DNA of 64,000 nt from sequence record OR896834.1; one strand, written 5' to 3'. Both the position numbers and the translations under genes were made by a program. Positions 3,321 to 56,839 of the stretch are shown here, in pieces; positions within the stretch are counted from its first letter, which is position 1, and the number at the start of each line of letters is the position of its first letter. Origin of the DNA: Escherichia phage Baret. The notes beneath the pieces are model-generated. The model had not been told where the DNA came from and did not search any database. It saw nothing but the letters and a program-made list of their open reading frames with translations.

Positions 3321-3325
3321 GTGGA

Positions 3326-3523
3326 TTAGACGCTTAAAATACTTCTAATCTCTTCTATATACTTACCTACTTTTTTAGCATCTACTTTACTTAGTTTTCC
3401 TATATCAAAATCAGGATCAGTAAACATTCTAGCTATCTCTATCTCTAGAGACTTACTAATTTTCCCGGTAGTATTCCACTTAGAAATCTTACCTTTTATT
3501 TTCCAAAATTCCTTATTCATCAT
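3326..3523 (-). CDS. hypothetical protein (65 aa)
   Basis: ORF track; co-directional tight operon. Confidence 0.4.
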   Translation of the reverse strand: MMNKEFWKIKGKISKWNTTGKISKSLEIEIARMFTDPDFDIGKLSKVDAKKVGKYIEEIRSILSV

Positions 3524-3905: not shown

Positions 3906-3914
3906 TCTGCCTCC

Positions 3915-4343: not shown

Positions 4344-4345
4344 AT

Positions 4346-4852: not shown

Positions 4853-5021
4853 TTTTGTTCCTTTCTAAGAACGTATCATACTCAACCGTATCAACATATA
4901 TAACACCATAGTCATCAGATTTATAGTCCATTTCCCACAGCTCACAACGATAGCACCAACTACCGTCCGCCCATACAAATATATCATCAGGGTGTGTATA
5001 CACAGATTTAATTATGGACAT
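4839..5021 (-). CDS. hypothetical protein (60 aa)
   Basis: ORF track; overlaps neighbours by a few nt in operon-like fashion. Confidence 0.35.
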   Translation of the reverse strand: MSIIKSVYTHPDDIFVWADGSWCYRCELWEMDYKSDDYGVIYVDTVEYDTFLERNKNGNK

Positions 5022-5866
5022 ATTTGTTTCCCCGGCACATAAGGTCTACCCTCTAAATGGGCTTCTACACGAGCGATAAAATCAGGGTCATTGAAAGCAT
5101 CTACCGCACCTTTACTCCAGTAAGAGATACCACGTTCTTCCAGCTGGTACATCTCACTACGAGTCATACCTTGATAGCCAGGTTCCGCTGCGAGGGCACT
5201 ATCATAGTAGTTAACAACCATAAGTTTCGCAGCAGTCAAATTAAGAACAGGAAATAATTCCCAGTAGAAGTTAATTACTTGGTTAGAGCAACCAACCACA
5301 ATGATCATATCTTGACTGGTAATACCATCAAAAATATTGTACATTTCTGCATACGCTGGAGCATGCTCCCCAAAGAAGATTACATTAGGTTTAACCCATT
5401 TATAATCATCTGGATCAATAGAAGTGTACCCTACATCAATAATCCGTTTATTGCTACTATTGTAGCTATCAGCTACAACAACCTCTTTTAAATATCCGTG
5501 AATGTGCAGAATGTCACTATGTGGAACGCCAGCACGCTCAATAAGGTCATCAACGTTGGTAGTCAAGTTTACTACCTGACCTGGATATTGTTTATACCAT
5601 TCACCAATACGCAAATGTGCAAGATTGGGTTCAACAGTTTTTAGCTCTTCACGACGTTTGTTGTAAAACATATGGGTTTTATGGTAAAAATTACCACGAA
5701 AGGCATGAATATTACATACTTCTTCTAGATCATAATCATCCCACAGTGCTTTACCACTAGCAGTATCAGTACGAAAAGCTCGTACACCACTTTCAACACT
5801 CAAACCCGCACCGCTAATAATAATTAATCTACGCATTTTCCACCTGTTCTCTGAAGTTTTGCCCAA
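5012..5866 (-). CDS. Sir2-family (sirtuin-like) NAD-dependent protein
   Basis: IISGAGLSVESGVRAFR (sirtuin GAGIS..SGIP.FR motif) and NVDDLIERAG...HIHG; true start may be the internal Met (MRRLII...). Confidence 0.6.
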   Translation of the reverse strand: MGKTSENRWKMRRLIIISGAGLSVESGVRAFRTDTASGKALWDDYDLEEVCNIHAFRGNFYHKTHMFYNKRREELKTVEPNLAHLRIGEWYKQYPGQVVNLTTNVDDLIERAGVPHSDILHIHGYLKEVVVADSYNSSNKRIIDVGYTSIDPDDYKWVKPNVIFFGEHAPAYAEMYNIFDGITSQDMIIVVGCSNQVINFYWELFPVLNLTAAKLMVVNYYDSALAAEPGYQGMTRSEMYQLEERGISYWSKGAVDAFNDPDFIARVEAHLEGRPYVPGKQICP

Positions 5867-6050
5867 TACTGTCTAATAGCTCAGCTAATTCTTTATTGCC
5901 TTTCTCCATTAAGGTATTAGCAATAACTTCTAGCATATTAGCGCAGGATTCAACACCATCCTTATAGCCAGTTTCCCAATACTGCATTAATGCGTTTTCC
6001 AAAGCGGCATTTAAACCCTTATCTGGTAGCATCGGCTTCGAGAATGCCAT
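5829..6050 (-). CDS. hypothetical protein (73 aa)
   Basis: ORF track. Confidence 0.4.
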   Translation of the reverse strand: MAFSKPMLPDKGLNAALENALMQYWETGYKDGVESCANMLEVIANTLMEKGNKELAELLDSIGQNFREQVENA

Positions 6051-6243
6051 AAAGTTTCTCCTCTAGTTCCATAACACGATTTTCATAAGAAGCACGCAAC
6101 TTTTCAATTGCCAGCGCACGCACTGTAACCTCATTAGAATTAATAGCTAACTGGGCTAGGTCTTCTGTTTCCATACGTCCGTTGTAAATTAAGCGATATT
6201 TAAGGTGTTTCACATTCTTAGTCATTATTAAACTCCACTGCAA
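6019..6243 (-). CDS. hypothetical protein (74 aa)
   Basis: ORF track. Confidence 0.4.
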   Translation of the reverse strand: MQWSLIMTKNVKHLKYRLIYNGRMETEDLAQLAINSNEVTVRALAIEKLRASYENRVMELEEKLYGILEADATR

Positions 6244-6598
6244 CTGTTTCTAGGTCTTCATCAGAAAAACTAGAGTATACATCTTTAAGATATTGTTTAA
6301 TACTCCAAGTAATATCTTCGTACCCATGGGGGCTACGTTGGTACACTTTTAGCACTCTATTATACACAAATTCAAGATTACATTTTACTTCATCTCTGTC
6401 TTCATCAAACAAGCAATATGGATTATAAGGTGATACATCTAGATTTGTTCCCACCCAATCGCCAATAATTGATGAATATCCAATACCCTCTAGATGGGAA
6501 TAATCTCCAGTAGATGCAAAAATAGCTTCTCTAAGATCGTCTACGCCAAGATGGAAACTACCACATGTAGACTCAACTATATAGGGCTTTAATTCCAT
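6218..6598 (-). CDS. hypothetical protein (126 aa)
   Basis: ORF track; immediately downstream of nrdD; no radical-SAM CxxxCxxC motif, so not an NrdG activase. Confidence 0.45.
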   Translation of the reverse strand: MELKPYIVESTCGSFHLGVDDLREAIFASTGDYSHLEGIGYSSIIGDWVGTNLDVSPYNPYCLFDEDRDEVKCNLEFVYNRVLKVYQRSPHGYEDITWSIKQYLKDVYSSFSDEDLETVAVEFNND

Positions 6599-6697
6599 AC
6601 CTTTCTCCTATCAAATTTATAAATCTATTATATATAAATTTTTGGCTGAAAGCAAATAAAATAAAAGCCAGGTCGACTAGCAACCCGGCTGATTAGC

Positions 6698-8572
6698 TTA
6701 CTTAGCTCGAATATCCTGATGCTTCACCCTGCCCATCACCTCGTGCTGTTTGCCAGGGTTAAATGGACGAGCACCCGGATTTCCAAGATACCCACAAACC
6801 CGACGAGTTACTTCAAGAGTTTCAGGGTCATGATTACCACAGATAGGGCACTTGAATCCATCTTCGGATGCTACTGTTTCACCTAAGAATCCACATTTAC
6901 CACAAGAATCCACTGGAGTATTAATACCAAAGTAATGAACCTTACTAGCAGCATAATTAATAACCCATTCCAGTGCATCTGGGAATCGTTTCATATCCGG
7001 TAGTTCTACATAGGAAATGCACCCACCAGAAGCAATCGGAGTAAAGTTAGATTCATAATCAAATTTGACGTTAGGAGCAACTTTACGTTCCACATCAAGG
7101 TGGTGAGAGTTAGTGTAGTAACCTTTGGACAGAATATCTTCATGCTCCGGGAAATATTCACGGTCTAGACGACAAAAGCGATCACATAGGGACTCTGATG
7201 GTGTAGCATACAGACTATAGCCTAACTGAGTCTCTTCCTTCTTCTGATCGACTCTATCTCGCATGTACTGCAATACACGCTGAACAAACTTGATGCAGGT
7301 CTCGGACATTGTATCTACATCTTTGCCAAACATGAACTGTAGCATTTCATGGCAACCAATATACCCTAGAGATACAGAAGCACGGTTATAGAAATGATCG
7401 AATACATATTCATCAGGCCCCAAGCGTAACCCAAAGGCTCCTGACATATAGAGGATGGGTGCAGCTTTAGCTTGAATGTATTTTAAGCGATCAACTCTCC
7501 ACTCCAACGCTTTTAATGCTGTATCCACACGTAGCTCAAGCAAATCAAAGAATAGATCAATATTTCCTTCAGCTTCGATAGCAATTCTAGGCAAGTTTAC
7601 AGAAACAACACCTAAGTTATTACGACCGGCAGTTTCACCATCTTCTGTAGCAGCTAGGAATGAACGGCAGCCCATAGAAACTTTGTAGTCTCCAGTAACC
7701 TCTACAACTTTGTCATAGCTGATATAATCTGGATACATACGTTCAGCAGTACATTTCATAGATAACTTCTTGATGTCATAATTAACATCTCCTGGTTTCA
7801 TATTAACGCCATCACGAAGTACAAATACCAGTTTCGGGAAGATAGCTGTACGTTTATTGATACCTAAACCATCCATGCGTACTTTCAGTATTGCCCTCTG
7901 TACTAGACGTGCTTCCCAAGAAGTTCCTAGACCAAAACCAAAGGTAATAAATGGGCTCTGACCATTAGAGTTGAACATGGTATTGATTTCATATTCTAAA
8001 CCCTGACAAGCGTCATAGACTTCTTTTTCAGTCATCTCCGTAGCCATTACGGATGCTTTGGCTTCATCCTTAGTCCAACGTTTTGCAAACGCATGATTTT
8101 TATCATAGGATTTACGAACATAAGGTGCTAATACTTCATCAAGGCGATCTACAGAAGTACCACCATACTGATGGGAGCTAACTTGAGTGATAATCTGAGC
8201 AGTGATAGCCGCCGCAGTAGTGATAGAGTTTGGAGTGCTAATTTCAGCATTACCAACCTTCATACCATTCTTCAACATATCTTCCAGAGCTACCAGGCAA
8301 CAGTTAGTCATGCCTAATGCAGCATAATCAGCATCATGGAAATGAATATCCCCAATCATATGAGCATTTCGAATCTGAATTGGCATTTCTTCTAGAATCA
8401 GATACTTACTCAATTCACCTGCAAGCATATCCCTTTGTGTAGGGAAACGTTCTGAGGGTTTATTGGCATTATTAAACAGCAGCTCTTCATCTGCTGACCC
8501 TTCGATAATCTCTTTGCAGTTTCTAATTAACGCCTGCATTTCTTTATACTTTAGTTCTTCATTGCGATTCAT
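6698..8572 (-). CDS. nrdD: anaerobic ribonucleoside-triphosphate reductase (class III RNR)
   Basis: 624 aa; C-terminal glycyl-radical motif RVCGYLG preceded by Zn-ribbon CGKCGF...CPICG. Confidence 0.9.
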   Translation of the reverse strand: MNRNEELKYKEMQALIRNCKEIIEGSADEELLFNNANKPSERFPTQRDMLAGELSKYLILEEMPIQIRNAHMIGDIHFHDADYAALGMTNCCLVALEDMLKNGMKVGNAEISTPNSITTAAAITAQIITQVSSHQYGGTSVDRLDEVLAPYVRKSYDKNHAFAKRWTKDEAKASVMATEMTEKEVYDACQGLEYEINTMFNSNGQSPFITFGFGLGTSWEARLVQRAILKVRMDGLGINKRTAIFPKLVFVLRDGVNMKPGDVNYDIKKLSMKCTAERMYPDYISYDKVVEVTGDYKVSMGCRSFLAATEDGETAGRNNLGVVSVNLPRIAIEAEGNIDLFFDLLELRVDTALKALEWRVDRLKYIQAKAAPILYMSGAFGLRLGPDEYVFDHFYNRASVSLGYIGCHEMLQFMFGKDVDTMSETCIKFVQRVLQYMRDRVDQKKEETQLGYSLYATPSESLCDRFCRLDREYFPEHEDILSKGYYTNSHHLDVERKVAPNVKFDYESNFTPIASGGCISYVELPDMKRFPDALEWVINYAASKVHYFGINTPVDSCGKCGFLGETVASEDGFKCPICGNHDPETLEVTRRVCGYLGNPGARPFNPGKQHEVMGRVKHQDIRAK

Positions 8573-8822
8573 TATACTCTCCTTCTCTAACTAAGACTAC
8601 TATTATAACTCATTCGAGGGCGGATGTCAACAATATTTTACTATAAAGTTCTGTAACATGATCTGAGTCAAAAAATTTTATTTGCCAATCTCTATTAAAA
8701 ATTGTATAATCACGCACTCGTACACGCGATATAAAATGATTATCTAGTATCACACATCTCACGTTAAAAGCAAGCAAATTTTTTATTTAAATGCAATATC
8801 ATAGGCTTATTTAAAATTGTAG

Positions 8823-8851
8823 TTGCTTTTTACTGTATATATTGGTATAAT
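8823..8851 (+). promoter_or_regulatory. early promoter (TTGCTT-17-TATAAT)
   Basis: -35 8823-8828, -10 8846-8851; upstream of phoH. Confidence 0.6.
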
Positions 8852-8924
8852 ATATTTGTAAGTTGATAAACAAGATCTTTTTGTTGATCCTCTGTTAGCG
8901 AAGTACACTATAGGAGTGTTATTT

Positions 8925-9677
8925 ATGGGAAAAGCACGTCAAAAAAGAGAGAACCGCAATGGTTCAAGAAAGCGTGGCAACAAATATGAGAATAACGTAA
9001 TTCAGGCTGATTTTTCTAATGATTACGCTAACCCAGTTGCTAAATCCCTAGTAGGTAAAAACCGCGAGCAAAAATCATATATCAATATGATCAAGAACAA
9101 CACAGTGACTGTGGGTATCGGTGAGCCAGGTACTGGTAAAACCTTTATTCCGTCCGTTCTTGCAGCTCAGGAACTCGTAGACATTCACTCAGATATTGAG
9201 CAAGTGATTCTCGTACGTCCTAATGAACCTCTAGGTAAGTCTCTTGGTATGCTTCCTGGTGATCTGGCGGAAAAGCTAGAGCCTTGGTTAGAGCCAATAG
9301 CTGATGGTATGAAATGGGCCATCGGCGATCATGCCTATAAGGGATATGTCGAACGTCAGAAAATTAAATTTTTGGCTGTCGAACATGCTCGTGGCAGAAC
9401 TTTCAACAACTCCTATGTAATTGTCGATGAAGCTCAGAATATTTCCGTTGAGGCAATGATTTGTCTCCTAACTCGTGTAGGGCAAGACTGCCGTTTAATT
9501 ATCTGTGGAGATATAGCTCAGAAAGACATTAAAGGTGACTCAGGTCTAGCACTCCTTATGGAAGTCTATGAGAAATATGAAAATGCCCCATTCTCAATGA
9601 TCGAATTGATTGATAACGTTCGTTCTGTTGAGTCTAAAGCATTCTATGATATTTTTAAAGATATGGGAAAGGTGTAA
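8925..9677 (+). CDS. phoH: PhoH-like ATPase
   Basis: Walker A GEPGTGKT; ATG 8925 with TAGGAG 8 nt upstream (track GTG 8916 start less likely). Confidence 0.85.
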   Translation: MGKARQKRENRNGSRKRGNKYENNVIQADFSNDYANPVAKSLVGKNREQKSYINMIKNNTVTVGIGEPGTGKTFIPSVLAAQELVDIHSDIEQVILVRPNEPLGKSLGMLPGDLAEKLEPWLEPIADGMKWAIGDHAYKGYVERQKIKFLAVEHARGRTFNNSYVIVDEAQNISVEAMICLLTRVGQDCRLIICGDIAQKDIKGDSGLALLMEVYEKYENAPFSMIELIDNVRSVESKAFYDIFKDMGKV

Positions 9678-9678
9678 T

Positions 9679-9921
9679 ATGGGAAACGTCGTTCATCTGA
9701 GCCGTAAAACTAAAATACATCGTACTTCACTGAGTGCTGCTAATATGATTACACGTAAGGAAGGGGAAGAAAGTCCTAAGACAACCCTAGCGTGGAAAAT
9801 TGTAACCTCAAATCCAAATAAACCATTCAATTATAACGAGCTGAGCACCTCTATAGATATTCTATTAAAAGAAGTAGCTAGAGCTAAAGTAATTGAACAA
9901 GCTAAAAAGCTAGACTGGTAA
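9679..9921 (+). CDS. hypothetical protein (80 aa)
   Basis: ATG 9679 directly after phoH stop; track ORF 9610-9921 trimmed. Confidence 0.4.
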   Translation: MGNVVHLSRKTKIHRTSLSAANMITRKEGEESPKTTLAWKIVTSNPNKPFNYNELSTSIDILLKEVARAKVIEQAKKLDW

Positions 9922-10042
9922 TATACAGGGCCTGGGTATGAAAATACTCGGGCCTTTTCTATCAGAAAATTTTATTTGCCTAATGACAGATAATAAAGTA
10001 GAATATTCCTTAAATCCTGATAACTATAAAAAGGAAAGCCAA

Positions 10043-12373
10043 ATGAGCCATCGCATTGAAAAAGTAATTAAACGTGACGGTACTGTAGAAGACTTTGCTC
10101 CTGAAAAACTCAATGGTTGGGCAGAGTATGGTTGCAAAACAGTTGATGTAAGTTGGTCAGCCATTACTATGGCTGCTCAAAAAACTCTGCCTAAGGGGGT
10201 TGTAGATTCCGACACTCTGATGGACGCATTAATTAAAGCTGCTGAAAGTCTTATCAAAGATAACCCAGCATACGATGTGCCAGCAAAGGAATTACGTCTT
10301 GCGCAAATGCGTAAACGCCTTTACGACTCTTTCGAACCACCTTCTCTACGCTTCTTCCATGACCATATGGTTAGCGTAGGTGCATGGGAAGACATGAGTG
10401 CATGGATTACCGATGAGCAGTTCGAAGCTCTGAATCAGGTTATCGACCATGATCGTGACCGTCTTTTTACTAGTGGTGGACTGAAACAGTTCTTTGATAA
10501 GTATTCCCGTCGTAACATAGCCACTGGTGAAATTTATGAAACTCCGCAGTTTGCCTACATGGGTATGGCAATGGCGATGTTATCTCAACCTAGCTGGACA
10601 ATTCTAGATGCAATCGACCTCTACAACGCAATGTCACTCCACAAAATCAACGTTCCTACGCCGCCACTGGTTGGTCTGCGCTCTAGTGACCGTGGATTTG
10701 CTAGTTGCTGCCTCGTGGATTCCACTGACACGTTGGATTCAATCGACACCGCCGAGCACATCGTCTTCAAAATGGTCGCAGCCAGAGCGGGAATCGGGTA
10801 TCATCTTGAAAGCCGATCAATTGCTGATCCGGTGCGAAATGGGGCATTCCCGCATTCCGGAAAACTGCCATATTATCGACACATTGACCGCTCAGTAAAG
10901 GCCAATACTCAGCAAACTCGTGGTGGTTCTGCCACAGTGTCTTATCCGTACTTCGACCCTGAAATCATTCAATTGATGCAGGTTAAGCAACAACGTGCTA
11001 CAGATGAGAATAAAATCGATAAGATGGATTATTCTCTGAGCTTTAACAATCTTTTGTTAAAACGTTATCTTAAAAACGAAGATATTACGCTAATGTCATA
11101 CTTCTATGCTCCAGAAGTTCATGAAGCGTTTTATAGTGATGACGAGGCTAAATTTGAAGAAATCTACGTGGCAGCGGAGAAACGTGTGGCATCTCTTACA
11201 AAGATCGACCACGAAGGAAAAACAGTTCCAGCAGCTCCTAAAGTCTCTGCAAAAGAAATCCTAGATACTTGGCTACGTATCCGAATGGAAACAGGACGTA
11301 TGTATGCGCATCACATCGGGGAATCTAATCGTCACGGTAATTTCCTTGATCCGATCCGTATGACAAACCTTTGTGTTGAGATTACTCAGCCTACACGCCC
11401 GTTCCACCATATCACGGAACTGTATAAAACAAAAGAACAACTTGATCAAATGAAGCCGGAGGATATTGGTGAAGTATCTCTGTGTAACTTAGGTGGTGTT
11501 GTACTTGGACGCATGGAATCTCTGGCTGAGTGGGAAAAAACTTGCTACATCCTCCTGAAATTCGTTGATACAATTATTGAAATCCAGGATTATCCGTTCC
11601 CAACTATGGAATATACGGCTAAGAAACGTCGTAATGTTGGTATTGGACTGATGAACGCAGCAGGTGCAATGGCAGCAGAAGGTCTGGCTTATGAAGGTAT
11701 TGAAGCCCGTAACTGGATTCACCGTGAGGCTGAAAAACTGTCTTACTTCCTGCATAAAGCCTCTGTACGCCTAGCTAAAGAACAGGGTGCATGTGAGTGG
11801 TTTGATCGTACTAAACCATCTAAAGGAATTCTGGTAATCGACACGTACAAGAAAACTGTTGATGAGCTGGTATCCGTAGGTCTAGAAATGGATTGGGAGT
11901 CTCTACGTGCAGATATTCTGAAATATGGTATGCGTAACTCTGTTCTGACTGCTCAGATGCCGGGAGAAAGTTCTTCTGTTCTGTTAGGTGTTACTAACTC
12001 TATTGAACCACCTCGTAAGATTGTATCTATCAAGGGTAGTGCAGTAAATAAAGTAATTGCAATTGCTCCAGGTGCAACCGATTGGGAAACGTTAATGAGC
12101 TATAAACTGGCCTATGATGTAGATCGTATCGAGTGGATCAAGTGGGTAGCAACTATGCAGAAATTCTTCAGTCAGTCTATCAGTACTAATATGTACTATG
12201 ACTACACCAAGTTTGAGAATGAAATCATTCCTGGCCCAGTAGTAGTTCGTGATTTCATGACTGCTGTTAAGTATGGGTGGAAAACTTGGTATTATGCTAA
12301 CTTCAATACCGCAAATGGTGGAGGTGCTGGAGAAGAAGCAGCCGGTTGTGCATCCGGTGGTTGTACTATTTAA
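10043..12373 (+). CDS. nrdA: ribonucleoside-diphosphate reductase large subunit (class Ia)
   Basis: 776 aa from ATG 10043 (SD AAAGGAAAG); RNR alpha motifs, C-terminal CASGGC; track start 9938 is probably an upstream extension. Confidence 0.9.
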   Translation: MSHRIEKVIKRDGTVEDFAPEKLNGWAEYGCKTVDVSWSAITMAAQKTLPKGVVDSDTLMDALIKAAESLIKDNPAYDVPAKELRLAQMRKRLYDSFEPPSLRFFHDHMVSVGAWEDMSAWITDEQFEALNQVIDHDRDRLFTSGGLKQFFDKYSRRNIATGEIYETPQFAYMGMAMAMLSQPSWTILDAIDLYNAMSLHKINVPTPPLVGLRSSDRGFASCCLVDSTDTLDSIDTAEHIVFKMVAARAGIGYHLESRSIADPVRNGAFPHSGKLPYYRHIDRSVKANTQQTRGGSATVSYPYFDPEIIQLMQVKQQRATDENKIDKMDYSLSFNNLLLKRYLKNEDITLMSYFYAPEVHEAFYSDDEAKFEEIYVAAEKRVASLTKIDHEGKTVPAAPKVSAKEILDTWLRIRMETGRMYAHHIGESNRHGNFLDPIRMTNLCVEITQPTRPFHHITELYKTKEQLDQMKPEDIGEVSLCNLGGVVLGRMESLAEWEKTCYILLKFVDTIIEIQDYPFPTMEYTAKKRRNVGIGLMNAAGAMAAEGLAYEGIEARNWIHREAEKLSYFLHKASVRLAKEQGACEWFDRTKPSKGILVIDTYKKTVDELVSVGLEMDWESLRADILKYGMRNSVLTAQMPGESSSVLLGVTNSIEPPRKIVSIKGSAVNKVIAIAPGATDWETLMSYKLAYDVDRIEWIKWVATMQKFFSQSISTNMYYDYTKFENEIIPGPVVVRDFMTAVKYGWKTWYYANFNTANGGGAGEEAAGCASGGCTI

Positions 12374-49873: not shown

Positions 49874-50360
49874 AATCTCATAGATTAAAAACATCAACTT
49901 GTTTTTACCTCTAGGCCGTAGATTTACATCATTCCTCGTAGGAAAACACTTGATGACGGTTCTGTTCGCAGGTTCTCGTCAATTGTTCTTCCACACCGAG
50001 ACTTAGGAGGATGTATCAAATCGCACGCGCCTAGAGGGACTAACTCTCATGAAATGGGGGTATATTTACTTTTAAATAACTAAAAAATATTTAAAGGCAA
50101 TATCTGTGTTCAAGATGATACACCTGTTGCCGCTCATCTGCTAGGATGGCACAACACTTTCTTCTAGACTCCTAAGTTTCTAGGAATAGTTGAGCACTAA
50201 CTCTAGAGTTTACATTAAACTTTAAATCTGCTTCTCTAGTTAACTCAGGCGGTTTTCATATTCCTAGAAACTCCAGCAATAGGCGGTTAATACAGGGCGG
50301 TTATAGGGAGGGCGGTTATTTCTAAGAGACATTTTTTGAAAACACATTTCCAGAAATTAC

Positions 50361-50961
50361 TGTCGGATTTGCACATTGTGTTTCTAGAAATTTATGGTCG
50401 GATTTGCACAAACGCCTAAGTTTTTAGGAACTCTTACTCTCCTGAAAATACCAGCATTATTTCGGGCCGAAGGCCCGTGATTGCCTGAGTTTTTAGAGCC
50501 ACAGAAATTTTCACTTGTCAAGCTATTTTGCCACCTTTAGCAAATAAAATCTTACTTTATCTCCACTAATCTCAAATTAACCCAAATCTTCTCAACTCTT
50601 CCCCAAAAACGCAGCAAATCAGGTGCTCCGCACCAAACATGCTGCTCCTCCAGTTTCTCCTCTTATTTTCTCTCGCTCTCTCATCTTCTCCTCAAACCTA
50701 TACAATCACACACTCTCCAATCGAAGTCACAAAAATCTTGTCGGTTTCGCACACCTCAACACATGTCGGATCTGCACATATTCTAGCTAATTCCACAGGA
50801 TTCGAACGCAGTTCGTGATTGCTGGAGTTTCTAGAAAAATTCATTGTCGGATTTGCACACTATAAAAATTTTTCGGGTCGGATTTGCACACTACCAAAAA
50901 TTGTCGGATTCGCACATACACGCCCACACGTAACACCCGTGGAGCAATGTCGGATTTGCAC
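50361..50961. repeat. array of 8 direct copies of a 14-mer (GTCGGATTTGCACA and close variants)
   Basis: Copies at ~50361, 50396, 50739, 50764, 50845, 50876, 50902, 50948, all same orientation, irregular spacing. Confidence 0.85.
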
Positions 50962-50990
50962 AAAAGCGCAGGGCAATTGCCCTGCTCGCC

Positions 50991-51168
50991 TGAATGCGAA
51001 TGATAATGAGAATCAATCTTATTTAAAAAGCGGAATGAGAATGATAATGATTCGCATTTAAGAAAGGGAATGAGAGCTATTCAAGAAGTGAAATGATTCT
51101 CATTTAAGAAAGGAAATGATTATCGGTTAGACAGTGGAATGCGAATGATAATGATTCGCATTTAAAAA
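50991..51168. repeat. three palindromic units of type AATGCGAATGATAATGATTCGCATT
   Basis: Units near 50993-51017 (partial), 51031-51060, 51137-51166, plus degenerate copy ~51066-51106. Confidence 0.75.
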
Positions 51169-51194
51169 CGGAAGTGAGAAACACTGTTATTTAA

Positions 51195-51276
51195 GTTATC
51201 CACAGACTTATCAACAGCACGATTTGACTTGACAGAATCCTAGCCATTTTGAGGCGTTATTAACAGACTTATCCAC
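51195..51276. promoter_or_regulatory. DnaA-box cluster (2 x TTATCCACA)
   Basis: TTATCCACA at ~51195-51203 and ~51268-51276. Confidence 0.6.
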
Positions 51277-51284
51277 AGCTTATC

Positions 51285-51304
51285 CTACTGTATAAATATA
51301 CAGT
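51285..51304. promoter_or_regulatory. SOS-box-like palindrome TACTGTATAAATATACAGTA
   Basis: CTGT-N8-ACAG with AT-rich centre, matching the LexA operator pattern. Confidence 0.5.
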
Positions 51305-51561
51305 ATTCCTATGTAGTGAATAATTCTAATATAGGCCTAAAACGTCCTGAATCGCATTCTAACGCGTTTAATTTTGATGGGGATACTAAAACAAGGGCAA
51401 AATTGGAGGAGGCTTAAAAATTAGTTAGCTTGCTAACGATCACACAAGGCGACATGTAACACCTTAATCATTAGCAGGCTAACCATCGCGGGCGCGGTTA
51501 AATGAGAATCACTCTCATTTGAGAATTGGGGGCACTCCCTGGTAGTTACGCCCCGTTATTA

Positions 51562-51786
51562 TTAGTCTGGTAGTCGATGCGTGATCTTTTCCTCCTCCCC
51601 GTAGGAATCCACCAAATGCTGATAATAACCATCGGCATCATAAATAACGCTATCATATTCGCCACGCTCGACCGCTTGCCGATTCTCCGGCGTATCGGGC
51701 ACGTAAAAAACATCAACCATTGTACTGATTTTGGTTACAACAATTTTATTGTTCATAATAACCCCTAGTAAATATATTTTTGCCAA
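51562..51786 (-). CDS. hypothetical acidic protein (64-74 aa)
   Basis: ORF track; last gene of minus-strand pre-early block. Confidence 0.4.
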   Translation of the reverse strand: MAKIYLLGVIMNNKIVVTKISTMVDVFYVPDTPENRQAVERGEYDSVIYDADGYYQHLVDSYGEEEKITHRLPD

Positions 51787-51856
51787 TAGTGGCGAACGTT
51801 ATCGCCACCAGCGGAATCATTTGCAGCCTCAACATTACCAGCGAAAATATATAATC

Positions 51857-52201
51857 TCATTGCGCCACCTTTCGAAACGCTGTTTCAATACTATCCGCAG
51901 TGGATTGAATATACGCGCCTTTCATTATCAGGCGCTCGGTGCATACCTTGCGGAAAATATTAATAAAATCCTCTTCATTTTCTGCAATCAATGCTTCCCC
52001 CATGACCTGAATATCACAAGATGCAAAGGTCAAAAATTGAAATGCTAGTTCACGGGCAACGACCGCATTGATTTTATAATGCGCCTTGCCCTCATAAATA
52101 TTAATAACGCCCTTGTAAGCTGGGGAAAGCTGATTTAAATAGTTTGCTAATAATGCCGGACGGCAATTAGTAACAAAGCGATTACCTTCATAAATTACCA
52201 T
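51857..52201 (-). CDS. hypothetical protein (114 aa)
   Basis: ATG at 52201 four nt after upstream stop; track ORF 51857-52240 trimmed. Confidence 0.45.
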   Translation of the reverse strand: MVIYEGNRFVTNCRPALLANYLNQLSPAYKGVINIYEGKAHYKINAVVARELAFQFLTFASCDIQVMGEALIAENEEDFINIFRKVCTERLIMKGAYIQSTADSIETAFRKVAQ

Positions 52202-52202
52202 T

Positions 52203-52415
52203 TTATAGCACCCCACGAAAAGCCGCGTAAAAGGTGGCAAAGTGTTTAACTGTTTCAGCGATCACGTTGCCGCGCTTGTCGAATTTTTTCTCGGTAACAC
52301 GAAAGGCATTTTTGTTACGTGCTACATATTCGATTTTACAATCCTCCCGCTCGAACGTGTTAACATCCACCAGCTTAAAGCCTTTCGAACGTGCAAGAGA
52401 AACGTTGCGGATCAT
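52203..52415 (-). CDS. hypothetical basic protein (70 aa)
   Basis: ORF track; SD AAAGGAG upstream. Confidence 0.45.
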   Translation of the reverse strand: MIRNVSLARSKGFKLVDVNTFEREDCKIEYVARNKNAFRVTEKKFDKRGNVIAETVKHFATFYAAFRGVL

Positions 52416-52417
52416 TT

Positions 52418-52573
52418 TTATTCTCCTTTACCAGTCATGCAGCCCAGCAGATAAGAAAATACAGCGATACCCGCGCCGATAATAACAGCGTGAACGCCGA
52501 AAGCTATTGCAAAAAGTGATAAAATAGCGCCCAAGATACCTGCTAGAATAGCTCGAAAAATAACCATTTTCAT
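52418..52573 (-). CDS. small hydrophobic membrane protein (~50 aa)
   Basis: Hand-found minus-strand ORF (MKMVIFRAILAGILGAILSLFAIAFGVHAVIIGAGIAVF...); below ORF-track cut-off; SD AGGAG. Confidence 0.4.
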   Translation of the reverse strand: MKMVIFRAILAGILGAILSLFAIAFGVHAVIIGAGIAVFSYLLGCMTGKGE

Positions 52574-52613
52574 ACTCCTAGTTAATGGGGCGAAAGTAAC
52601 GCCCCATTATTAA

Positions 52614-52877
52614 TTACATTAAAACAATTTTTGCAGCTTGTTTTTTGGTGCAATGTTCCGCCTTCAGGGTATCCAGCAAAAAGCCAGCCGTTTGCTGATC
52701 GATTTTATCGGCGTTATATAGTTCCTGAATGGTATTATAGGTTTTAGCAATACCGAACTCCTGCACCATTTCATAGATGACAGCACGATTAGACACCCAG
52801 CCTTGAGCGGTGAACAGATGACTAGCAGAAGAATAAGCAACCATTTTAAGCCTCCAAATTTTTGGGAAAATTTTCAA
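52614..52877 (-). CDS. hypothetical protein (76-87 aa)
   Basis: ORF track. Confidence 0.4.
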   Translation of the reverse strand: MKIFPKIWRLKMVAYSSASHLFTAQGWVSNRAVIYEMVQEFGIAKTYNTIQELYNADKIDQQTAGFLLDTLKAEHCTKKQAAKIVLM

Positions 52878-52950
52878 CCGTCCTTAAACGGTGTAAAGGC
52901 ATTATAACAAAAAAGGCCACCAATTATGGCGACCTTTACAAAACTTTACA

Positions 52951-53445
52951 TTAAACTACTTGTAATGTTTCAATATTGAAACATCGTTTCAATTCGTCAT
53001 GCAAAACAGCGTATTCCTCCCATCGGGTACTATCAGGAATATAAACAAGCTGTTTTAATCGGTTTGCATATATTACCGCTTTGTTATCAATTATCTCGAC
53101 GCCGCCATATTTAATAATTAATTTCATGACGGAATTAATAGGATCACCGCCGTTTACATATGTGCCGGATTTACTTAACTGATAATGATAAAGGCTTGCA
53201 TATACGTTTTCATTTTCATACCATTCGCCAGTATCCTCGTCTTCATAGCCATCGCTACCAAAACGAGAAGCATTATCAATAGCCATTTCATGAGCGAAAG
53301 CGTCCAGATCCGTACCAGCAGGAACAAAGTATTCCTCGGTATTCCCCTCGCCGCAATAGCCAGTATGGCAATCGACTAAAATGATCATATCATGTTTAGC
53401 CGTGCTCACTTCCCCTAGCGAGAAGCCGTATTTTTCCTCAGCCAT
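52951..53445 (-). CDS. hypothetical acidic protein (164 aa)
   Basis: ORF track; no recognisable motif. Confidence 0.5.
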   Translation of the reverse strand: MAEEKYGFSLGEVSTAKHDMIILVDCHTGYCGEGNTEEYFVPAGTDLDAFAHEMAIDNASRFGSDGYEDEDTGEWYENENVYASLYHYQLSKSGTYVNGGDPINSVMKLIIKYGGVEIIDNKAVIYANRLKQLVYIPDSTRWEEYAVLHDELKRCFNIETLQVV

Positions 53446-53510
53446 TAGTTAGCCTCCTATTAATTAACAAGGGAATAGTAAAGCGGGGTAACAATCCCCG
53501 CTTAATATTA

Positions 53511-54503
53511 TTACTCGCTTTCGGTGTTAGTGGTAAAAGTAGAAATATCGATACCTTTTACCATTTCATCAATCATTTCAGCGATGTTAAAACTTTGCAC
53601 CATTTCCAGCATTGCCGCTTCCATAGCTGCGCCTGCTACCGCTTTCGCTTTCTGGTTATTCGGGGCGTACTGGTCAACCGCTACGCTCAGCAGGTTAGCA
53701 ATAACTACCCGACCAATCGGCGTATCAATATAACCTTTGATCATGAATGGTGCTTTTTTAGCCGCTACTTTCGTAATTTGAGTTAATGCAATTTTGCCAG
53801 CTTCCAGTTTTGCAGCATTTACAACAGCGGATTTATTAGCGGCAACGATATTAGCGATCTTGGTCATGGTATTATTTCCTTTGTTTTCAGTAGTTTGAGT
53901 GTTAACGCTTTGAGTGTTAGAATTTACAGCATGTTTTTCCGTGTTGTCAATAGGCTGATCTTCCTCCTTCCAGAAAGAAAAGCCCGCGCTTTCAATATCC
54001 CCATCATATACATAAGGGTACACTTCCGACGGTAACAAAAAATTACCGTTATCATCAAAGGCCATTACAGCCGCGAAACGATACCCGTCACAATCCGACC
54101 GATTCCAGCCAACTGATAAATAACGCCAAAATGAATCAAGAAAATTTTCAATATCATAAAGATCATTGGGGTTGGCTTCATAATTTTCTATTGAAAAAAC
54201 TTCTAAGCCTGCCCCAGTATCATAGGCTTTTACTGTGCTACCTTTTACGATTATGAAATCAGTATCCGGCCCTCGACTAGTGAGCAATTGATAATCTTGA
54301 TTATATAAAACAAGCGTTGCCCCTTGTTTATATAACGGTAGAAAACTATTCATATCATAGGCATCGAAATCACCAAAAAAGTTTTGGTGAATAGTTTCAG
54401 CCTTGTTAATAAAATGTTTAATGCTGGTTGTTCTGCTACCGTCCAGCAGGTTACGCAGCGCACCTTTTAAGACGGTTGCGTTATCTGGTTTATATAGCCT
54501 CAT
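53511..54503 (-). CDS. hypothetical protein (330 aa) with Asn/Thr-rich linker and Ala-rich helical C-terminus
   Basis: ORF track; SD GAGGGAGG before ATG 54503; first gene of minus-strand pre-early block. Confidence 0.55.
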   Translation of the reverse strand: MRLYKPDNATVLKGALRNLLDGSRTTSIKHFINKAETIHQNFFGDFDAYDMNSFLPLYKQGATLVLYNQDYQLLTSRGPDTDFIIVKGSTVKAYDTGAGLEVFSIENYEANPNDLYDIENFLDSFWRYLSVGWNRSDCDGYRFAAVMAFDDNGNFLLPSEVYPYVYDGDIESAGFSFWKEEDQPIDNTEKHAVNSNTQSVNTQTTENKGNNTMTKIANIVAANKSAVVNAAKLEAGKIALTQITKVAAKKAPFMIKGYIDTPIGRVVIANLLSVAVDQYAPNNQKAKAVAGAAMEAAMLEMVQSFNIAEMIDEMVKGIDISTFTTNTESE

Positions 54504-54769
54504 TTGTTGGCCTCCCTCGTTAATCGGTGAGTGAATGATAAAGGCAATTTTCTAGCATAGGCAAATATTATTTTACCTTTTTATTTTCCTTGCCTAGCGC
54601 CTAGTTTTATGCTAACCGCGCAGCGGTACAGTAAAGAGCAAAACACGGTGAAGCCACCAGGGCGACGGGTGAAGGCTTTACTTTAATATTACCCCACCGC
54701 ATTTAGCTCGTTAGAAAGCGTTTTAGGCCGCTTAAAATTGATTGCAGTTGTTAACACTACCCATTTACC

Positions 54770-54785
54770 CTGTATATTTATACAG
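54770..54785. promoter_or_regulatory. SOS-box-like palindrome CTGTATATTTATACAG
   Basis: CTGT-N8-ACAG; inverted counterpart of the element at 51285-51304. Confidence 0.5.
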
Positions 54786-54795
54786 TAGGATAACA

Positions 54796-54879
54796 TGTGG
54801 ATAAGTCTGTGGATAAGTCCTTATATCGCCGCCTATCGTGTCAAATCATTTTGTGCTGTTAATAACATTGTGGATAACT
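54796..54879. promoter_or_regulatory. DnaA-box cluster (3 x TGTGGATAA)
   Basis: TGTGGATAA at ~54796-54804, ~54808-54816 and TTGTGGATAAC ~54868-54878. Confidence 0.6.
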
Positions 54880-54911
54880 TAAATGATAGTGGTTCTCACT
54901 TAGGACGATAG

Positions 54912-54963
54912 TTTCTTATAGTTATTATTTCTATCGGTTACGATTTCTTATAATTATTATTTC
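54912..54963. repeat. two direct ~20-bp repeats (TTTCTTATAGTTATTATTTCT / TTTCTTATAATTATTATTTCT)
   Basis: Copies at ~54912-54931 and ~54944-54963 in the divergent control region. Confidence 0.6.
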
Positions 54964-55160
54964 TCATTAATTTATAAGTATATTATATATCATGAAATAG
55001 TTAGTTGGCTAATGAGATTTTCCGTGATTAATAGTCTGCTAATAGTTCCGGCTGTTACAATCCACCAGCATGATTATCATCCTAGCAACTATTAGTCTGC
55101 TATCTTTCCGATGCATACTAACAAATAAAAGTCAATTAATTTATTTCATAAAATAAGTAG

Positions 55161-55236
55161 TTATCCACTGGAAAATAAAAGTCAAGTGGATAACTAGGAA
55201 AATTTCATTTTTGCTTTTGGGGATAAGTTATCAACA
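55161..55236. promoter_or_regulatory. DnaA-box-like cluster
   Basis: TTATCCACT ~55161, GTGGATAAC ~55187, GGATAAGTTATCAACA ~55221. Confidence 0.5.
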
Positions 55237-55649
55237 AGGCTAGAATGCACCTAAAACGCCCTAGAACGCGATGAAAGTTTTAGCCATGCCATTGCATTGC
55301 CTACCCTCGTTTATCGCTACCACGAGCTTTTTAGTTTTTGTCAAGTAGGGCAAGGCAAATATAAATGAAAAAATTACTTGCCAACCTGCTGGGTTTTATG
55401 GTATTCGCGCGCCCGTTTCCTTTAATTTTAGTGCGCCGCGCCCAGGTCGCCGCACGGTGTCCGGTGGCATTTTGTCTTTACGTTTCTTTACAAAAATAAG
55501 GTTGCGCCATTTTTACTATTTGCTATTATTTATCTCGTAGGGCGGCAATGACGAACTACACGGCGGGAAGTTTACCGCCGCGCTCTTTAAAAATTGGGTA
55601 CATCTTAAAGTCTATCGGCGGTAAACTTATATTATAAGGAATCGCAGAT

Positions 55650-55853
55650 ATGAAACAAACTTTATTGATCACTGGTAAACCAGCTAAAAAATTAGATGGT
55701 ACTACTAAAAAATTGTTGACAATAGCCCAGCAATCCGTAAAATACCGATTTGCTCAGTACAAGAAAGGCCGCCAGCAGGGTTTAGAAATGATCTGGCGTA
55801 ATATTATGATCGACCTGAAAGAAAATCATAAAAAACTGCAAAAAACAGTTTGA
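55650..55853 (+). CDS. pre-early hypothetical protein (67 aa)
   Basis: ORF track; SD AGGAATCG. Confidence 0.45.
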   Translation: MKQTLLITGKPAKKLDGTTKKLLTIAQQSVKYRFAQYKKGRQQGLEMIWRNIMIDLKENHKKLQKTV

Positions 55854-56083
55854 CACCCTAGCCGATAGGCTTTAAGATGTACCCAGTTCGATGAGAGCGA
55901 TAACTTGATACAATTTGACGGTTAGGTGATTCCCCATAAATCATCCTGCCCCCTAACTGGGATATAGCAGCCTGCGTGGAGTTCCTTAAATTGATTATAG
56001 CGGTGAGCGGATTGTTGCTTATTACCTGCTACTTTCTAGCAGGTAATGCGGAACAATCCCCTAAATAACTTGGAGTTTATACT

Positions 56084-56335
56084 ATGCAAAACGTTATTAC
56101 CGCGCCTAAAATTGGTCAATCCGTTTTTATTCCTTTCGTTACTAAAACGGATGAACTAACCGGAAAAGCCGAACGTATTAAAGGTGCGGCGCTTATGCCG
56201 TTTGATACAATCGACGCGGTATACGCTGAAAATGAACGTAGTAACAACGGCAAAACCGTTTTTAGCGTTCGCGTTAAATCCGGCGACGTTGTAAAGGTTG
56301 TACAGCGTAACGAAAAATGGGAAGCTGTAGCGTAA
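56084..56335 (+). CDS. pre-early hypothetical protein (83 aa)
   Basis: ORF track; SD GGAG. Confidence 0.45.
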   Translation: MQNVITAPKIGQSVFIPFVTKTDELTGKAERIKGAALMPFDTIDAVYAENERSNNGKTVFSVRVKSGDVVKVVQRNEKWEAVA

Positions 56336-56431
56336 TAGTGTTACTTTTATATCCCCCAGTAGTTCGGGGGATATAACGATTAACATTATGTTAATCTTAT
56401 CCCTTAAATTAAACTAATAGGAGTTTTTACC

Positions 56432-56839
56432 ATGACTAACGTTAAAACCGCAAAATTTGCTTGGAATGAAGAAAACACTCAAAAAGCTGTTTCTATGTAC
56501 CAGCAGTTAATTAATGAAAACGGTTTAGATTTCGCAAATAGCGACGGTTTAAAAGAGATTGCAAAAGCAGTGGGCGCGTCTTCTCCCGTGTCTGTTCGCT
56601 CAAAATTGACCAGCGCAAAAGCGTATCAGAAAAGCGATAAGCCTCGCAAAGTTGGCGGCGGTAGCTCAATCCGCAAAGCTCACTATGTACGCGTTATCGC
56701 TAAACATGCTATTGATTCCGGCATTATTAAAGACGCCGACGATCTGGCAAGTCTGGAAAGTGCAAAACTTGAAACGCTGGACGCCGTAGCGCAACTGTTA
56801 GGCGTTGCCGATGAAGTAAAACAGGCCGCAGGTGAATAA
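56432..56839 (+). CDS. pre-early hypothetical protein (135 aa)
   Basis: ORF track; SD AGGAG. Confidence 0.5.
   Translation: MTNVKTAKFAWNEENTQKAVSMYQQLINENGLDFANSDGLKEIAKAVGASSPVSVRSKLTSAKAYQKSDKPRKVGGGSSIRKAHYVRVIAKHAIDSGIIKDADDLASLESAKLETLDAVAQLLGVADEVKQAAGE

What the first reader, a model, noticed from the sequence alone, without database searches (positions are those of the whole stretch)
51562..54503. Minus-strand pre-early block of seven proteins with no recognisable function
Within the first-step-transfer region, opposite in orientation to A1/A2/dmp, lies an operon-like block: 330-aa and 164-aa proteins, a ~50-aa membrane peptide and four 64-114 aa proteins. It has a strong SD before the first gene, ATG/stop overlaps and higher GC. 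Genes expressed from first-injected DNA are where host-takeover and anti-defence functions concentrate, yet none of these carries a motif I can assign.
Basis: inference. Interest (0 to 1): 0.6.

Follow-up and report, generated by a model that had tools for sequence, protein, structure and literature searches.

The report
Known T5-type pre-early accessory genes
This block is the second, oppositely oriented set of first-injected genes of a T5-like phage, matching phage T5 genes 011-017; one product is a published enzyme that uses the host Ung protein to nick host DNA, so the block is real but largely known.

Summary
The seven minus-strand genes at 51562-54503 are real and under purifying selection (dN/dS 0.00-0.44). 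The window is a Tequintavirus. The block is the transcription unit divergent from hdi/A2/A1/dmp inside the collapsed terminal repeat (first-step-transfer DNA).

The genes are orthologues of T5 genes 011, 012, 013, 014, 015 and 017, plus a 164-aa gene that T5 has lost. T5.016 is deleted.

"No recognisable function" holds for motif searches only; the sole Pfam hit is DUF7566. It ignores experiments:
- The 114-aa protein is 93% identical to T5.015, the Ung-dependent abasic-site nickase, and keeps K85, K94 and K111.
- T5 011 and 013 are toxic to E. coli.
- A T5 mutant lacking hegG-017 is viable.

New here:
- RefSeq and PHROGs put the nickase name on the neighbouring 70-aa gene (T5.014), probably wrongly.
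- The 164-aa protein gives a confident model (pLDDT 87) with no match among solved structures, and is confined to T5-like phages.
- The DUF7566 protein has a near-invariant C-terminal domain and a genus-specific N-terminal domain.
- A terminator plus extended -10 element splits the block in two.

Verdict: already known locus, low to moderate interest. Five products remain uncharacterised.

The parts
54755..54901 (.). Right arm of the 147-nt inverted repeat that flanks the block. It carries paired DnaA and DnaA-like boxes (TGTGGATAA x3, TGTTAATAA) and corresponds to Davison's IRCspacerIRD.
   Evidence: Davison 2020 preprint 10.1101/866236
54535..54564 (-). Sigma-70 promoter: -35 TTGCCT, 18-nt spacer, -10 TATCAT. 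The surrounding region differs at one position from the T5 region upstream of gene 011, where a promoter was characterised experimentally. TTGCC and TATCAT are also kept in Epseptimaviruses.
   Evidence: T5 annotation; Annor 2026 Fig. 1 legend
54511..54518 (-). Shine-Dalgarno GAGGGAGG, 7 nt upstream of the ATG of the 330-aa gene.
53511..54503 (-). 330-aa acidic protein (pI 4.8), orthologue of T5.011 (79-80% identity; '37 kD pre-early protein'), Pfam DUF7566. It has a variable N-terminal domain (1-185), an N/T/Q-rich linker and a near-invariant Ala/Lys-rich helical C-terminal domain (213-330).
   Evidence: toxicity of T5 011
53481..53503 (-). GC-rich hairpin (AAGCGGGG...CCCCGCTT) directly after the 330-aa gene, with a weak T tail. 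Possibly a partial terminator.
52951..53445 (-). 164-aa acidic protein (pI 4.4) with its own SD (AGGAGG, 53458-53453). The family is restricted to T5-like phages (Demerecviridae) and is absent from T5 itself. The predicted structure is confident but matches no solved structure. Some homologues carry a CxxC...CxxC zinc-ribbon insert.
52901..52937 (-). Intrinsic terminator (52937-52912; 11-bp stem, T6 tail) overlapped by an extended -10 element TGTTATAAT (52909-52901). The element is conserved in all six T5-like phages compared (TGCTATAAT in Lindwurm), and the stem stays paired through G-C to G-U changes. Inferred end of unit 1 and start of unit 2.
   Evidence: T5 annotates the same hairpin as a terminator
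52614..52844 (-). 76-aa protein, orthologue of T5.012 (about 84% identity), SD TGGAGG. Function unknown; T5.012 was not toxic in either study.
52585..52608 (-). Stem-loop (ATGGGGCG...CGCCCCAT) between the 76-aa and 49-aa genes, with no T tail.
52418..52567 (-). 49-aa hydrophobic membrane peptide (51 aa if read from the upstream ATG at 52573), orthologue of T5.013, which has two transmembrane segments. T5 013 caused lysis on expression in one study and was not toxic in another.
52203..52415 (-). 70-aa basic protein (pI 10.0), 100% identical to T5.014 despite dS 0.53, with an invariant KKFDKRGN motif. Its ATG lies 2 nt after the preceding stop. It is labelled 'endonuclease nicking abasic sites...' in RefSeq and PHROGs, probably in error. 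Function unknown.
51857..52201 (-). 114-aa orthologue of T5.015 (93% identity), the Ung-binding nickase of abasic sites. K85, K94 and K111 are conserved. Its ATG lies 1 nt after the stop of the 70-aa gene.
51757..51856 (-). Empty variable slot (100 nt). Other phages hold unrelated 66-85-aa genes here. The window keeps only the first 19 codons of T5.016 (ATG at 51820) and a non-conserved 31-aa ORF.
51562..51756 (-). 64-aa acidic protein (pI 4.5), orthologue of T5.017 (91% identity). Function unknown; T5.017 was not toxic.
51529..51554 (-). Hairpin (GGGGC...GCCCC) after the last gene, at the position of the T5 terminator, followed by iss-type palindromes.
   Evidence: T5 annotation
51172..51318 (.). 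Left arm of the 147-nt inverted repeat. It carries two TTATCCACA boxes plus TTATCAACA and TTATTAACA, in pairs 3 bp apart, and corresponds to Davison's IRD'spacerIRC' (candidate injection stop signal).

Best explanation
The block is the rightward (in T5 coordinates) pre-early transcription unit of a Tequintavirus. It is the orthologue of T5 genes 011-015 and 017, plus an ancestral 164-aa gene that T5 has lost. It is an accessory host-takeover module, dispensable for growth on laboratory hosts, carried on the DNA injected in the first step.

Proposed working (inferred unless marked otherwise):
- After first-step transfer, host sigma-70 RNA polymerase starts at the conserved promoter at 54564-54535 and transcribes the 330-aa and 164-aa genes up to the terminator at 52937-52912.
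- An extended -10 element overlapping that terminator, or read-through, drives the tightly packed 76/49/70/114/64-aa genes.
- The 114-aa protein binds host Ung and nicks the abasic sites Ung makes in dUMP-containing host DNA. This arrests replication and division. It was shown for T5.015 and is inferred here from 93% identity and the conserved lysines.
- The DUF7566 protein disturbs nucleoid organisation (shown for T5 011). Its invariant C-terminal helical domain probably binds a conserved target, while the N-terminal domain varies by genus.
- The 49-aa hairpin peptide inserts in the inner membrane and can compromise it (shown for T5 013 in one study).
- The 164-, 76-, 70- and 64-aa proteins have no assigned role. 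The 70-aa basic protein is the best candidate for a partner of the nickase, because the two genes stay adjacent and abutting even in Serratia phage Slocum.
For: - Identity of the phage and locus: 96-97% nucleotide identity to Tequintaviruses. Gene-by-gene tblastn maps the block to T5.011-.015 and .017. Collinearity with the T5 left terminal repeat is shown.
- Promoter: the region matches the T5 promoter region upstream of 011 at all but one position, and that promoter was characterised experimentally.
- All genes are under purifying selection.
- T5.015 is the Ung-dependent AP nickase. The published non-toxic mutant is K85A/K94A/K111A. Lysines sit at exactly 85, 94 and 111 in both T5.015 and the window's 114-aa protein. 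UniRef names this protein 'DNA-(apurinic or apyrimidinic site) endonuclease'.
- Toxicity of T5 011, 013 and 015, and viability of the hegG-017 deletion.
- Pre-early genes form 'two inversely oriented transcriptional units' in BF23.
- The terminator plus extended -10 element is conserved in six phages.
- The order 011, 164-aa-like, 014, 015 is kept in Serratia phage Slocum.
Against: - No experiment was done on this phage. All functional statements are transferred from T5.
- 013 was toxic in one study and not in the other.
- In vivo, 015 did not detectably degrade DNA, and A1 alone accounts for host DNA breakdown. The contribution of the block to infection is therefore small on laboratory hosts.
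- The internal promoter is only a consensus match.
- Of the three lysines, only K111 is conserved in the distant Slocum homologue.
- Four of the seven products have no phenotype or were never tested.
Confidence: 0.85

Rival explanations
1. The block is mainly a counter-defence module. One or more of the uncharacterised products would be the first-step-transfer factor that makes Tequintaviruses insensitive to restriction-modification, RecBCD or other nuclease defences. The candidates are the DUF7566 protein with its genus-specific N-terminal domain and the acidic 164-aa and 64-aa proteins.
For: [quoted passage not shown] The responsible pre-early factor is still unidentified, and Epseptimaviruses are more sensitive.
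- The DUF7566 N-terminal domain is only 33-36% identical between the two genera, while the C-terminal domain is 92-99% identical.
- Dispensability on laboratory hosts is what is expected of anti-defence genes.
- The 164-aa (pI 4.4) and 64-aa (pI 4.5) products are acidic.
Against: - T5 lacks the 164-aa gene yet is restriction-insensitive.
- A1 and A2, in the other operon, are equally good candidates.
- No defence phenotype has been reported for any of these genes.
Confidence: 0.2
2. The block is a cargo region of interchangeable, individually unimportant genes held between the two DnaA-box inverted repeats. The repeats (injection stop signal) would be the selected feature, and the genes would be passengers.
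For: - 147-nt inverted repeats with eight DnaA-type boxes flank the block exactly.
- The distance between the arms varies from 1.85 to 4.26 kb among T5-like phages.
- The 164-aa gene, T5.016 and the slot after 015 are gained or lost between phages.
- The whole region can be deleted from T5.
Against: - Strong purifying selection on every gene. The 70-aa protein is 100% identical to T5.014 at dS 0.53, and the 114-aa gene has dN/dS 0.03-0.07.
- Gene order is conserved as far as Serratia phage Slocum.
- The T5 mutant DLDR, which lacks hegG-017 in addition to the left-hand deletions, is the only mutant with smaller plaques.
- Promoter and terminator elements are conserved.
Confidence: 0.1
3. The 70-aa protein, not the 114-aa protein, is the Ung-dependent nickase, as RefSeq and PHROGs annotate.
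For: - RefSeq product names on T5.014 and its orthologues, and the PHROG 4227 description.
- The Paris-Orsay T5 record calls the 70-aa protein 'ORF015'.
- The homologue accession cited by Mahata et al. (EFG4537521.1) is three numbers away from a 164-aa family member (EFG4537524.1). If every gene were annotated and numbered consecutively in one orientation, that would fall on the 70-aa gene. This arithmetic is inconclusive.
Against: - The published mutant K85A/K94A/K111A cannot exist in a 70-residue protein whose last lysine is K57. It fits the 114-aa protein exactly.
- Mahata's gene list and Annor's numbering both follow the NC_005859 locus tags, in which 013 is the two-TM peptide and 015 is the 114-aa gene.
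- UniRef names the 114-aa protein an AP endonuclease.
Confidence: 0.04

Closest known systems
Bacteriophage T5 pre-early genes T5.011-T5.017 (NC_005859, left terminal repeat 6495-9157)
   Same: - Same position between the IRCspacerIRD and IRD'spacerIRC' repeats, and same orientation relative to A1/A2/dmp.
- Same promoter and 5' UTR, and same terminator.
- Orthologues at 79% (011), 84% (012), 66-85% (013), 100% (014), 93% (015) and 91% (017) amino-acid identity.
   Different: - The window has a 164-aa gene between 011 and the terminator that T5 lacks.
- T5.016 is reduced to 19 codons.
- The HNH endonuclease hegG (T5.010), which lies upstream of the T5 block, is absent.
T5.015, the Ung-dependent abasic-site nickase (Mahata et al. 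2021, PNAS, PMC8201957)
   Same: 114 aa, 93% identical over the full length. K85, K94 and K111 are conserved; their joint substitution abolishes toxicity. Same genomic context.
   Different: Eight substitutions relative to T5.015; activity was not tested for this allele. It has no similarity to any classical AP endonuclease or lyase family.
Pfam DUF7566 (PF24450) / PHROG 4263
   Same: The 330-aa protein matches the full-length model (E = 3.8e-111, 372 bits against a cut-off of 27).
   Different: The family has no known function, so membership adds no mechanism. Some UniRef entries for members are named 'DNA N-6-adenine methyltransferase', with no domain support.
Pre-early regions of BF23, vB_Eco_mar004NP2, PMBT29 and SPLA5b
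   Same: 96-97% nucleotide identity across 51000-55000 to mar004NP2, PMBT29 and SPLA5b, with the same seven genes including the 164-aa one. BF23 homologues are 99% (114 aa) and 94% (330 aa) identical.
   Different: None of biological note; these records annotate the genes as hypothetical proteins.

Membership tests
T5-type pre-early (first-step-transfer) transcription unit 011-017 | Lies inside the terminal repeat, on the injected side of the injection stop signal, between the IRCspacerIRD and IRD'spacerIRC' DnaA-box repeats | tested here: met
   The window is collinear with T5 positions 105-10608. Inverted-repeat arms at 54755-54901 and 51172-51318 carry eight DnaA-type boxes. The repeat is described in T5.
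T5-type pre-early (first-step-transfer) transcription unit 011-017 | Orthology and synteny with T5.011, .012, .013, .014, .015 and .017 | tested here: met
   tblastn gives 66-100% identity in the same order; dN/dS is 0.00-0.34 against T5.
T5-type pre-early (first-step-transfer) transcription unit 011-017 | Sigma-70 promoter upstream of gene 011 | tested here: met
   -35 TTGCCT and -10 TATCAT, in a region that differs from the T5 promoter region at one position. The T5 promoter was characterised experimentally.
T5-type pre-early (first-step-transfer) transcription unit 011-017 | Transcribed before second-step transfer | not testable with these tools
   Literature only: pre-early RNA and protein detection in Bas33 and the two divergent pre-early units of BF23.
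T5.015 Ung-dependent AP-site nickase | Full-length sequence homology to T5.015 (114 aa) | tested here: met
   93% identity over 114 aa.
T5.015 Ung-dependent AP-site nickase | Lysines 85, 94 and 111, required for toxicity | tested here: met
   Lysines at 30, 39, 43, 85, 94 and 111 in both proteins; mutant named.
T5.015 Ung-dependent AP-site nickase | Binds Ung, nicks abasic sites, toxicity abolished in delta-ung | not testable with these tools
   Shown for T5.015 only.
Pfam DUF7566 | Score above the gathering threshold over the whole model | tested here: met
   372.3 bits against 27; model positions 5-336 of 336.
DNA-mimic anti-restriction proteins (ArdA / Ocr type), considered for the 164-aa protein | Sequence or fold similarity to ArdA or Ocr | tested here: not met
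DNA N6-adenine methyltransferase (UniRef label on Epseptimavirus homologues of the 330-aa protein) | Methyltransferase domain or motifs | tested here: not met
   Only DUF7566 is found in Pfam; NCBIfam finds nothing; no PDB sequence match. The label is seen.
Small two-TM membrane toxins (T5.013 type) | Hydrophobic hairpin of about 45 residues, and lysis on expression | tested here: inconclusive
   A continuous hydrophobic stretch covers residues 1-46 and the protein is orthologous to T5.013. The lysis phenotype was reported in one T5 study and not in another.

The most novel reading that the evidence does not exclude
One of the still uncharacterised products is the long-sought first-step-transfer factor that makes Tequintaviruses insensitive to restriction-modification and RecBCD. 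The most plausible candidate is the DUF7566 protein, whose N-terminal domain differs sharply between restriction-insensitive Tequintaviruses and restriction-sensitive Epseptimaviruses while its C-terminal domain is nearly invariant. A second reading is that the ultra-conserved 70-aa basic protein is an obligatory partner or regulator of the Ung-dependent nickase, making 014-015 a two-gene module.
Probability: 0.15. Interest if true: 0.7.

Novelty: already known. Interest (0 to 1): 0.25.

Why it matters
The locus itself is known, so there is little to discover in the block as a whole. Three practical points follow.

1. The only biochemically characterised gene of the block, the Ung-dependent nickase, appears to be attached to the wrong neighbouring ORF in RefSeq and PHROGs. 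The true orthologue is 'hypothetical' under all 20 hits displayed from 437 phage records. Annotation pipelines that use these sources will propagate the error.

2. The pre-early factor behind Tequintavirus resistance to restriction is still unknown. This block holds five untested or unexplained proteins. They include a 164-aa family with a confident predicted structure that matches no solved structure, and a two-domain protein whose variable half tracks the genus difference in restriction sensitivity.

3. The conserved terminator plus extended -10 element suggests the block is two transcription units. This matters for interpreting polar effects of deletions.

Tried and rejected
- Remote homologues of the 164-aa family. 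A profile search of 1.84 billion representatives found only 31 proteins, none with an informative Pfam domain apart from a zinc ribbon. BFVD matches are all uncharacterised proteins, those with names being from T5-like phages.
- Structure of the 330-aa DUF7566 protein. AlphaFold2 with a 26-sequence alignment gave mean pLDDT 54.7, so I did not use it for a fold search.
- The afdb50 fold library was unavailable.
- 'DNA N-6-adenine methyltransferase' label on DUF7566 homologues: no support.
- Rfam scan of 50000-56500: nothing at E <= 0.1.
- PADLOC and NCBIfam: nothing meaningful.
- PDB sequence searches for the 114-aa and 70-aa proteins: nothing.
- The 31-aa ORF overlapping the 114-aa stop codon (ATGA) is not homologous to the genes that occupy that slot in other phages. 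I treated it as non-coding.
- The Davison 2015 review and the SI of Mahata et al. were not available.
- A literature search for T5.012.013.014.016.017 and DUF7566 found no further functional work.
Full report
**What the window is**

The region 51000-55000 is 96-97% identical at the nucleotide level to Tequintaviruses (Salmonella phage PMBT29, SPLA5b, Escherichia phage vB_Eco_mar004NP2). It matches 454 phage records, in which the region is annotated as part of the left terminal repeat or first-step-transfer DNA.

Alignment to the first 11.5 kb of T5 (NC_005859) shows collinearity in reverse orientation. T5 positions 105-10608 correspond to window positions 60433-50109. The window therefore contains a collapsed copy of the roughly 10-kb terminal repeat. 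dmp, A1, A2 and hdi lie on the plus strand, and the finding lies on the minus strand.

**The observation**

All seven ORFs are present at the stated coordinates. tblastn maps them to T5 as follows:

| Window gene | Coordinates (minus strand) | T5 orthologue | Amino-acid identity |
|---|---|---|---|
| 330 aa | 53511-54503 | T5.011 | 79% |
| 164 aa | 52951-53445 | none in T5 | - |
| 76 aa | 52614-52844 | T5.012 | 84% |
| 49-51 aa | 52418-52567/52573 | T5.013 | 66% |
| 70 aa | 52203-52415 | T5.014 | 100% |
| 114 aa | 51857-52201 | T5.015 | 93% |
| 64 aa | 51562-51756 | T5.017 | 91% |

- T5.016 survives only as 19 codons.
- Every gene is under purifying selection against T5 and two Epseptimaviruses, with dN/dS 0.00-0.44. 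The 70-aa protein is identical to T5.014 at dS 0.53.
- The SD GAGGGAGG sits 7 nt before the first ATG.
- The claimed ATG/stop overlaps are really 1-2-nt gaps. The only ATGA overlap involves a non-conserved 31-aa ORF.
- The GC excess is small: 0.406 against 0.389 for the window, and 0.407 for the other pre-early operon.

**Anatomy**

- The block is bracketed by a 147-nt inverted repeat (51172-51318 and 54755-54901, 76% complementary). It carries eight DnaA or DnaA-like boxes in pairs 3 bp apart.
- This is the IRD'spacerIRC' / IRCspacerIRD pair that Davison described and proposed as part of the injection stop signal. He noted that the distance between the arms varies from 1.85 to 4.26 kb among T5-like phages.
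- Upstream of the 330-aa gene, a -35 TTGCCT / -10 TATCAT promoter lies in a region that differs from T5 at a single position. The 5' UTR is identical to T5, and the promoter hexamers are largely conserved in Epseptimaviruses. In T5 this promoter is annotated and was characterised experimentally.
- A hairpin follows the 330-aa gene.
- After the 164-aa gene there is a strong terminator (52937-52912) overlapped by an extended -10 element TGTTATAAT (52909-52901). The composite is conserved in all six phages compared (TGCTATAAT in Lindwurm), and the stem stays paired through G-C to G-U changes.
- I infer two transcription units: 330 + 164 aa, then 76-49-70-114-64 aa. This step is inferred, not shown.
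- Rfam finds no RNA family in the region.

**What is already known about the orthologues**

- Mahata et al. (PMC8201957) cloned the T5 genes of unknown function and found 008, 011 and 015 toxic. They showed that T5.015 binds Ung and nicks Ung-generated abasic sites, which arrests replication and division.
- Annor et al. (bioRxiv 10.64898/2026.04.02.716235) found 011, 013 and 015 toxic among the block's genes. The phenotypes were nucleoid disorganisation (011), lysis (013) and elongation with guillotined nucleoids (015).
- The same study built a T5 mutant lacking hegG-017 on top of left-hand deletions. It is viable, with smaller plaques. A1 alone is necessary and sufficient for host DNA degradation.
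- BF23's pre-early genes form two inversely oriented units, and the Tequintavirus anti-restriction factor expressed from first-step-transfer DNA is still unidentified.

**Which ORF is the nickase**

- RefSeq (T5 and several relatives) and PHROG 4227 attach 'endonuclease nicking abasic sites generated by host uracil glycosylase Ung' to the 70-aa protein, T5.014.
- The published non-toxic mutant is 015 K85A/K94A/K111A. T5.015 and the window's 114-aa protein both have lysines at exactly 85, 94 and 111. The 70-aa protein's last lysine is K57.
- Both T5 papers use the NC_005859 locus tags, in which 013 is the two-TM peptide.
- UniRef names the 114-aa protein an AP endonuclease, and the 70-aa protein is called 'ORF015' in the Paris-Orsay record. 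That is a likely source of the mix-up.
- The 114-aa gene is 'hypothetical protein' or unannotated under all 20 hits displayed from 437 phage records.

I conclude that the window's nickase orthologue is 51857-52201 and that the database label on 52203-52415 is very probably an error. The SI of the original paper would settle it, but it was not available.

**The 164-aa protein**

- It is absent from T5 but present in 344 phage records, including Klebsiella, Pectobacterium and Erwinia T5-like phages.
- In Serratia phage Slocum a 190-aa homologue sits in the same place after the 011 homologue (hhalign probability 98.3%). It is therefore ancestral to the locus and was lost in T5.
- The family is tiny: 18 clusters at 90% identity, and 31 representatives among 1.84 billion proteins.
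- Some members carry a CxxC...CxxC zinc-ribbon insert.
- AlphaFold2 gives a confident model (pLDDT 87.3, pTM 0.82).
- A DNA-mimic (ArdA-like) idea and an OB/MCM-like lead were both dropped. Its function remains open.

**The DUF7566 protein**

- Its C-terminal 118 residues are 92-99% identical across Tequintavirus and Epseptimavirus homologues. The N-terminal 185 residues fall to 65-72% in the T5 type and 33-36% in the Epseptimavirus type.
- The C-terminal conservation is at the protein level: 110 of 115 residues are identical to Salmonella phage 2-3 despite 32 synonymous codon changes.
- The structure prediction was poor (pLDDT 54.7), so I ran no fold search on it.
- A 'DNA N-6-adenine methyltransferase' label on some UniRef entries has no domain support.

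**The 014-015 pair**

- The two genes abut, 1 nt apart, and are the most constrained genes of the block.
- They remain adjacent in Serratia phage Slocum, where 012 and 013 are not annotated.
- This suggests, but does not show, that the basic 70-aa protein (pI 10, invariant KKFDKRGN) acts with the nickase.

**Verdict**

The finding is a correct reading of a real gene block, but the block is the well-known T5 011-017 pre-early region. One member has a published mechanism, two have published toxicities, and the region as a whole is known to be dispensable. I rate it already known, with low to moderate interest.

The residual value lies in four things:
- the apparent annotation error;
- the 164-aa family, whose predicted structure matches nothing solved;
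- the domain-wise conservation pattern of DUF7566;
- the unresolved question of which pre-early product protects Tequintavirus DNA from host nucleases.

Noticed in passing
window 52203-52415 (-) versus 51857-52201 (-): RefSeq records and PHROG 4227 name the 70-aa protein (T5.014 orthologue) as the Ung-dependent abasic-site endonuclease. The published mutant K85A/K94A/K111A fits only the 114-aa T5.015 orthologue, which is 'hypothetical' or unannotated under all 20 hits displayed from 437 phage records. This looks like an off-by-one annotation error that is being propagated.
   Followed up: yes
window 51172-51318 and 54755-54901: A 147-nt inverted repeat (76% complementary) with eight DnaA or DnaA-like boxes, in pairs 3 bp apart, brackets the seven-gene block exactly. 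It matches the IRD'spacerIRC' / IRCspacerIRD elements that Davison described for T5-like phages.
   Followed up: yes
window 52901-52937 (-): An intrinsic terminator is overlapped by an extended -10 motif (TGTTATAAT). The element is conserved in six Tequintavirus and Epseptimavirus genomes (TGCTATAAT in Lindwurm), and the stem stays paired through G-C to G-U changes. It suggests the block is two transcription units.
   Followed up: partly
window 51757-51856 (-): The slot between the 015 and 017 orthologues holds unrelated 66-85-aa genes in T5, Lindwurm and Salmonella phages 1-29 and 2-3. Here it is empty apart from 19 codons of T5.016 (ATG at 51820). It is a hot spot for gene replacement.
   Followed up: partly
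window 53511-54503 (-): The DUF7566 protein has an N-terminal domain that is 33-36% identical to Epseptimavirus homologues and a C-terminal domain that is 92-99% identical. Several UniRef entries for those homologues are named 'DNA N-6-adenine methyltransferase' without any domain support.
   Followed up: partly
window 50354-50962: Eight copies of a 22-nt direct repeat ending in GTCGGATTTGCACA lie in the non-coding region next to the block, with further repeats and palindromes at 50988-51525. This is the repeat-rich injection-stop region of T5-like phages (the DRD repeats in T5).
   Followed up: no
window about 54968-55131: The HNH homing endonuclease hegG (T5.010, T5 positions 5411-5929) is absent. 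The T5 alignment jumps from 5419 to 6018, as in most T5-like phages.
   Followed up: no
L007 (Serratia phage Slocum) 1442-3845: This distant member of the Demerecviridae keeps the order 011-like, 164-aa-like (190 aa with a zinc ribbon), 014, 015. Of the three lysines mutated in T5.015, only K111 is conserved there; R84 and R110 are invariant.
   Followed up: partly
window 55650-55853 (+): A 67-aa ORF at the position of T5.008 (hdi, the published FtsZ-ring destabiliser) heads the divergent operon, and two near-consensus promoter matches overlap or flank it. This is outside the finding.
   Followed up: no
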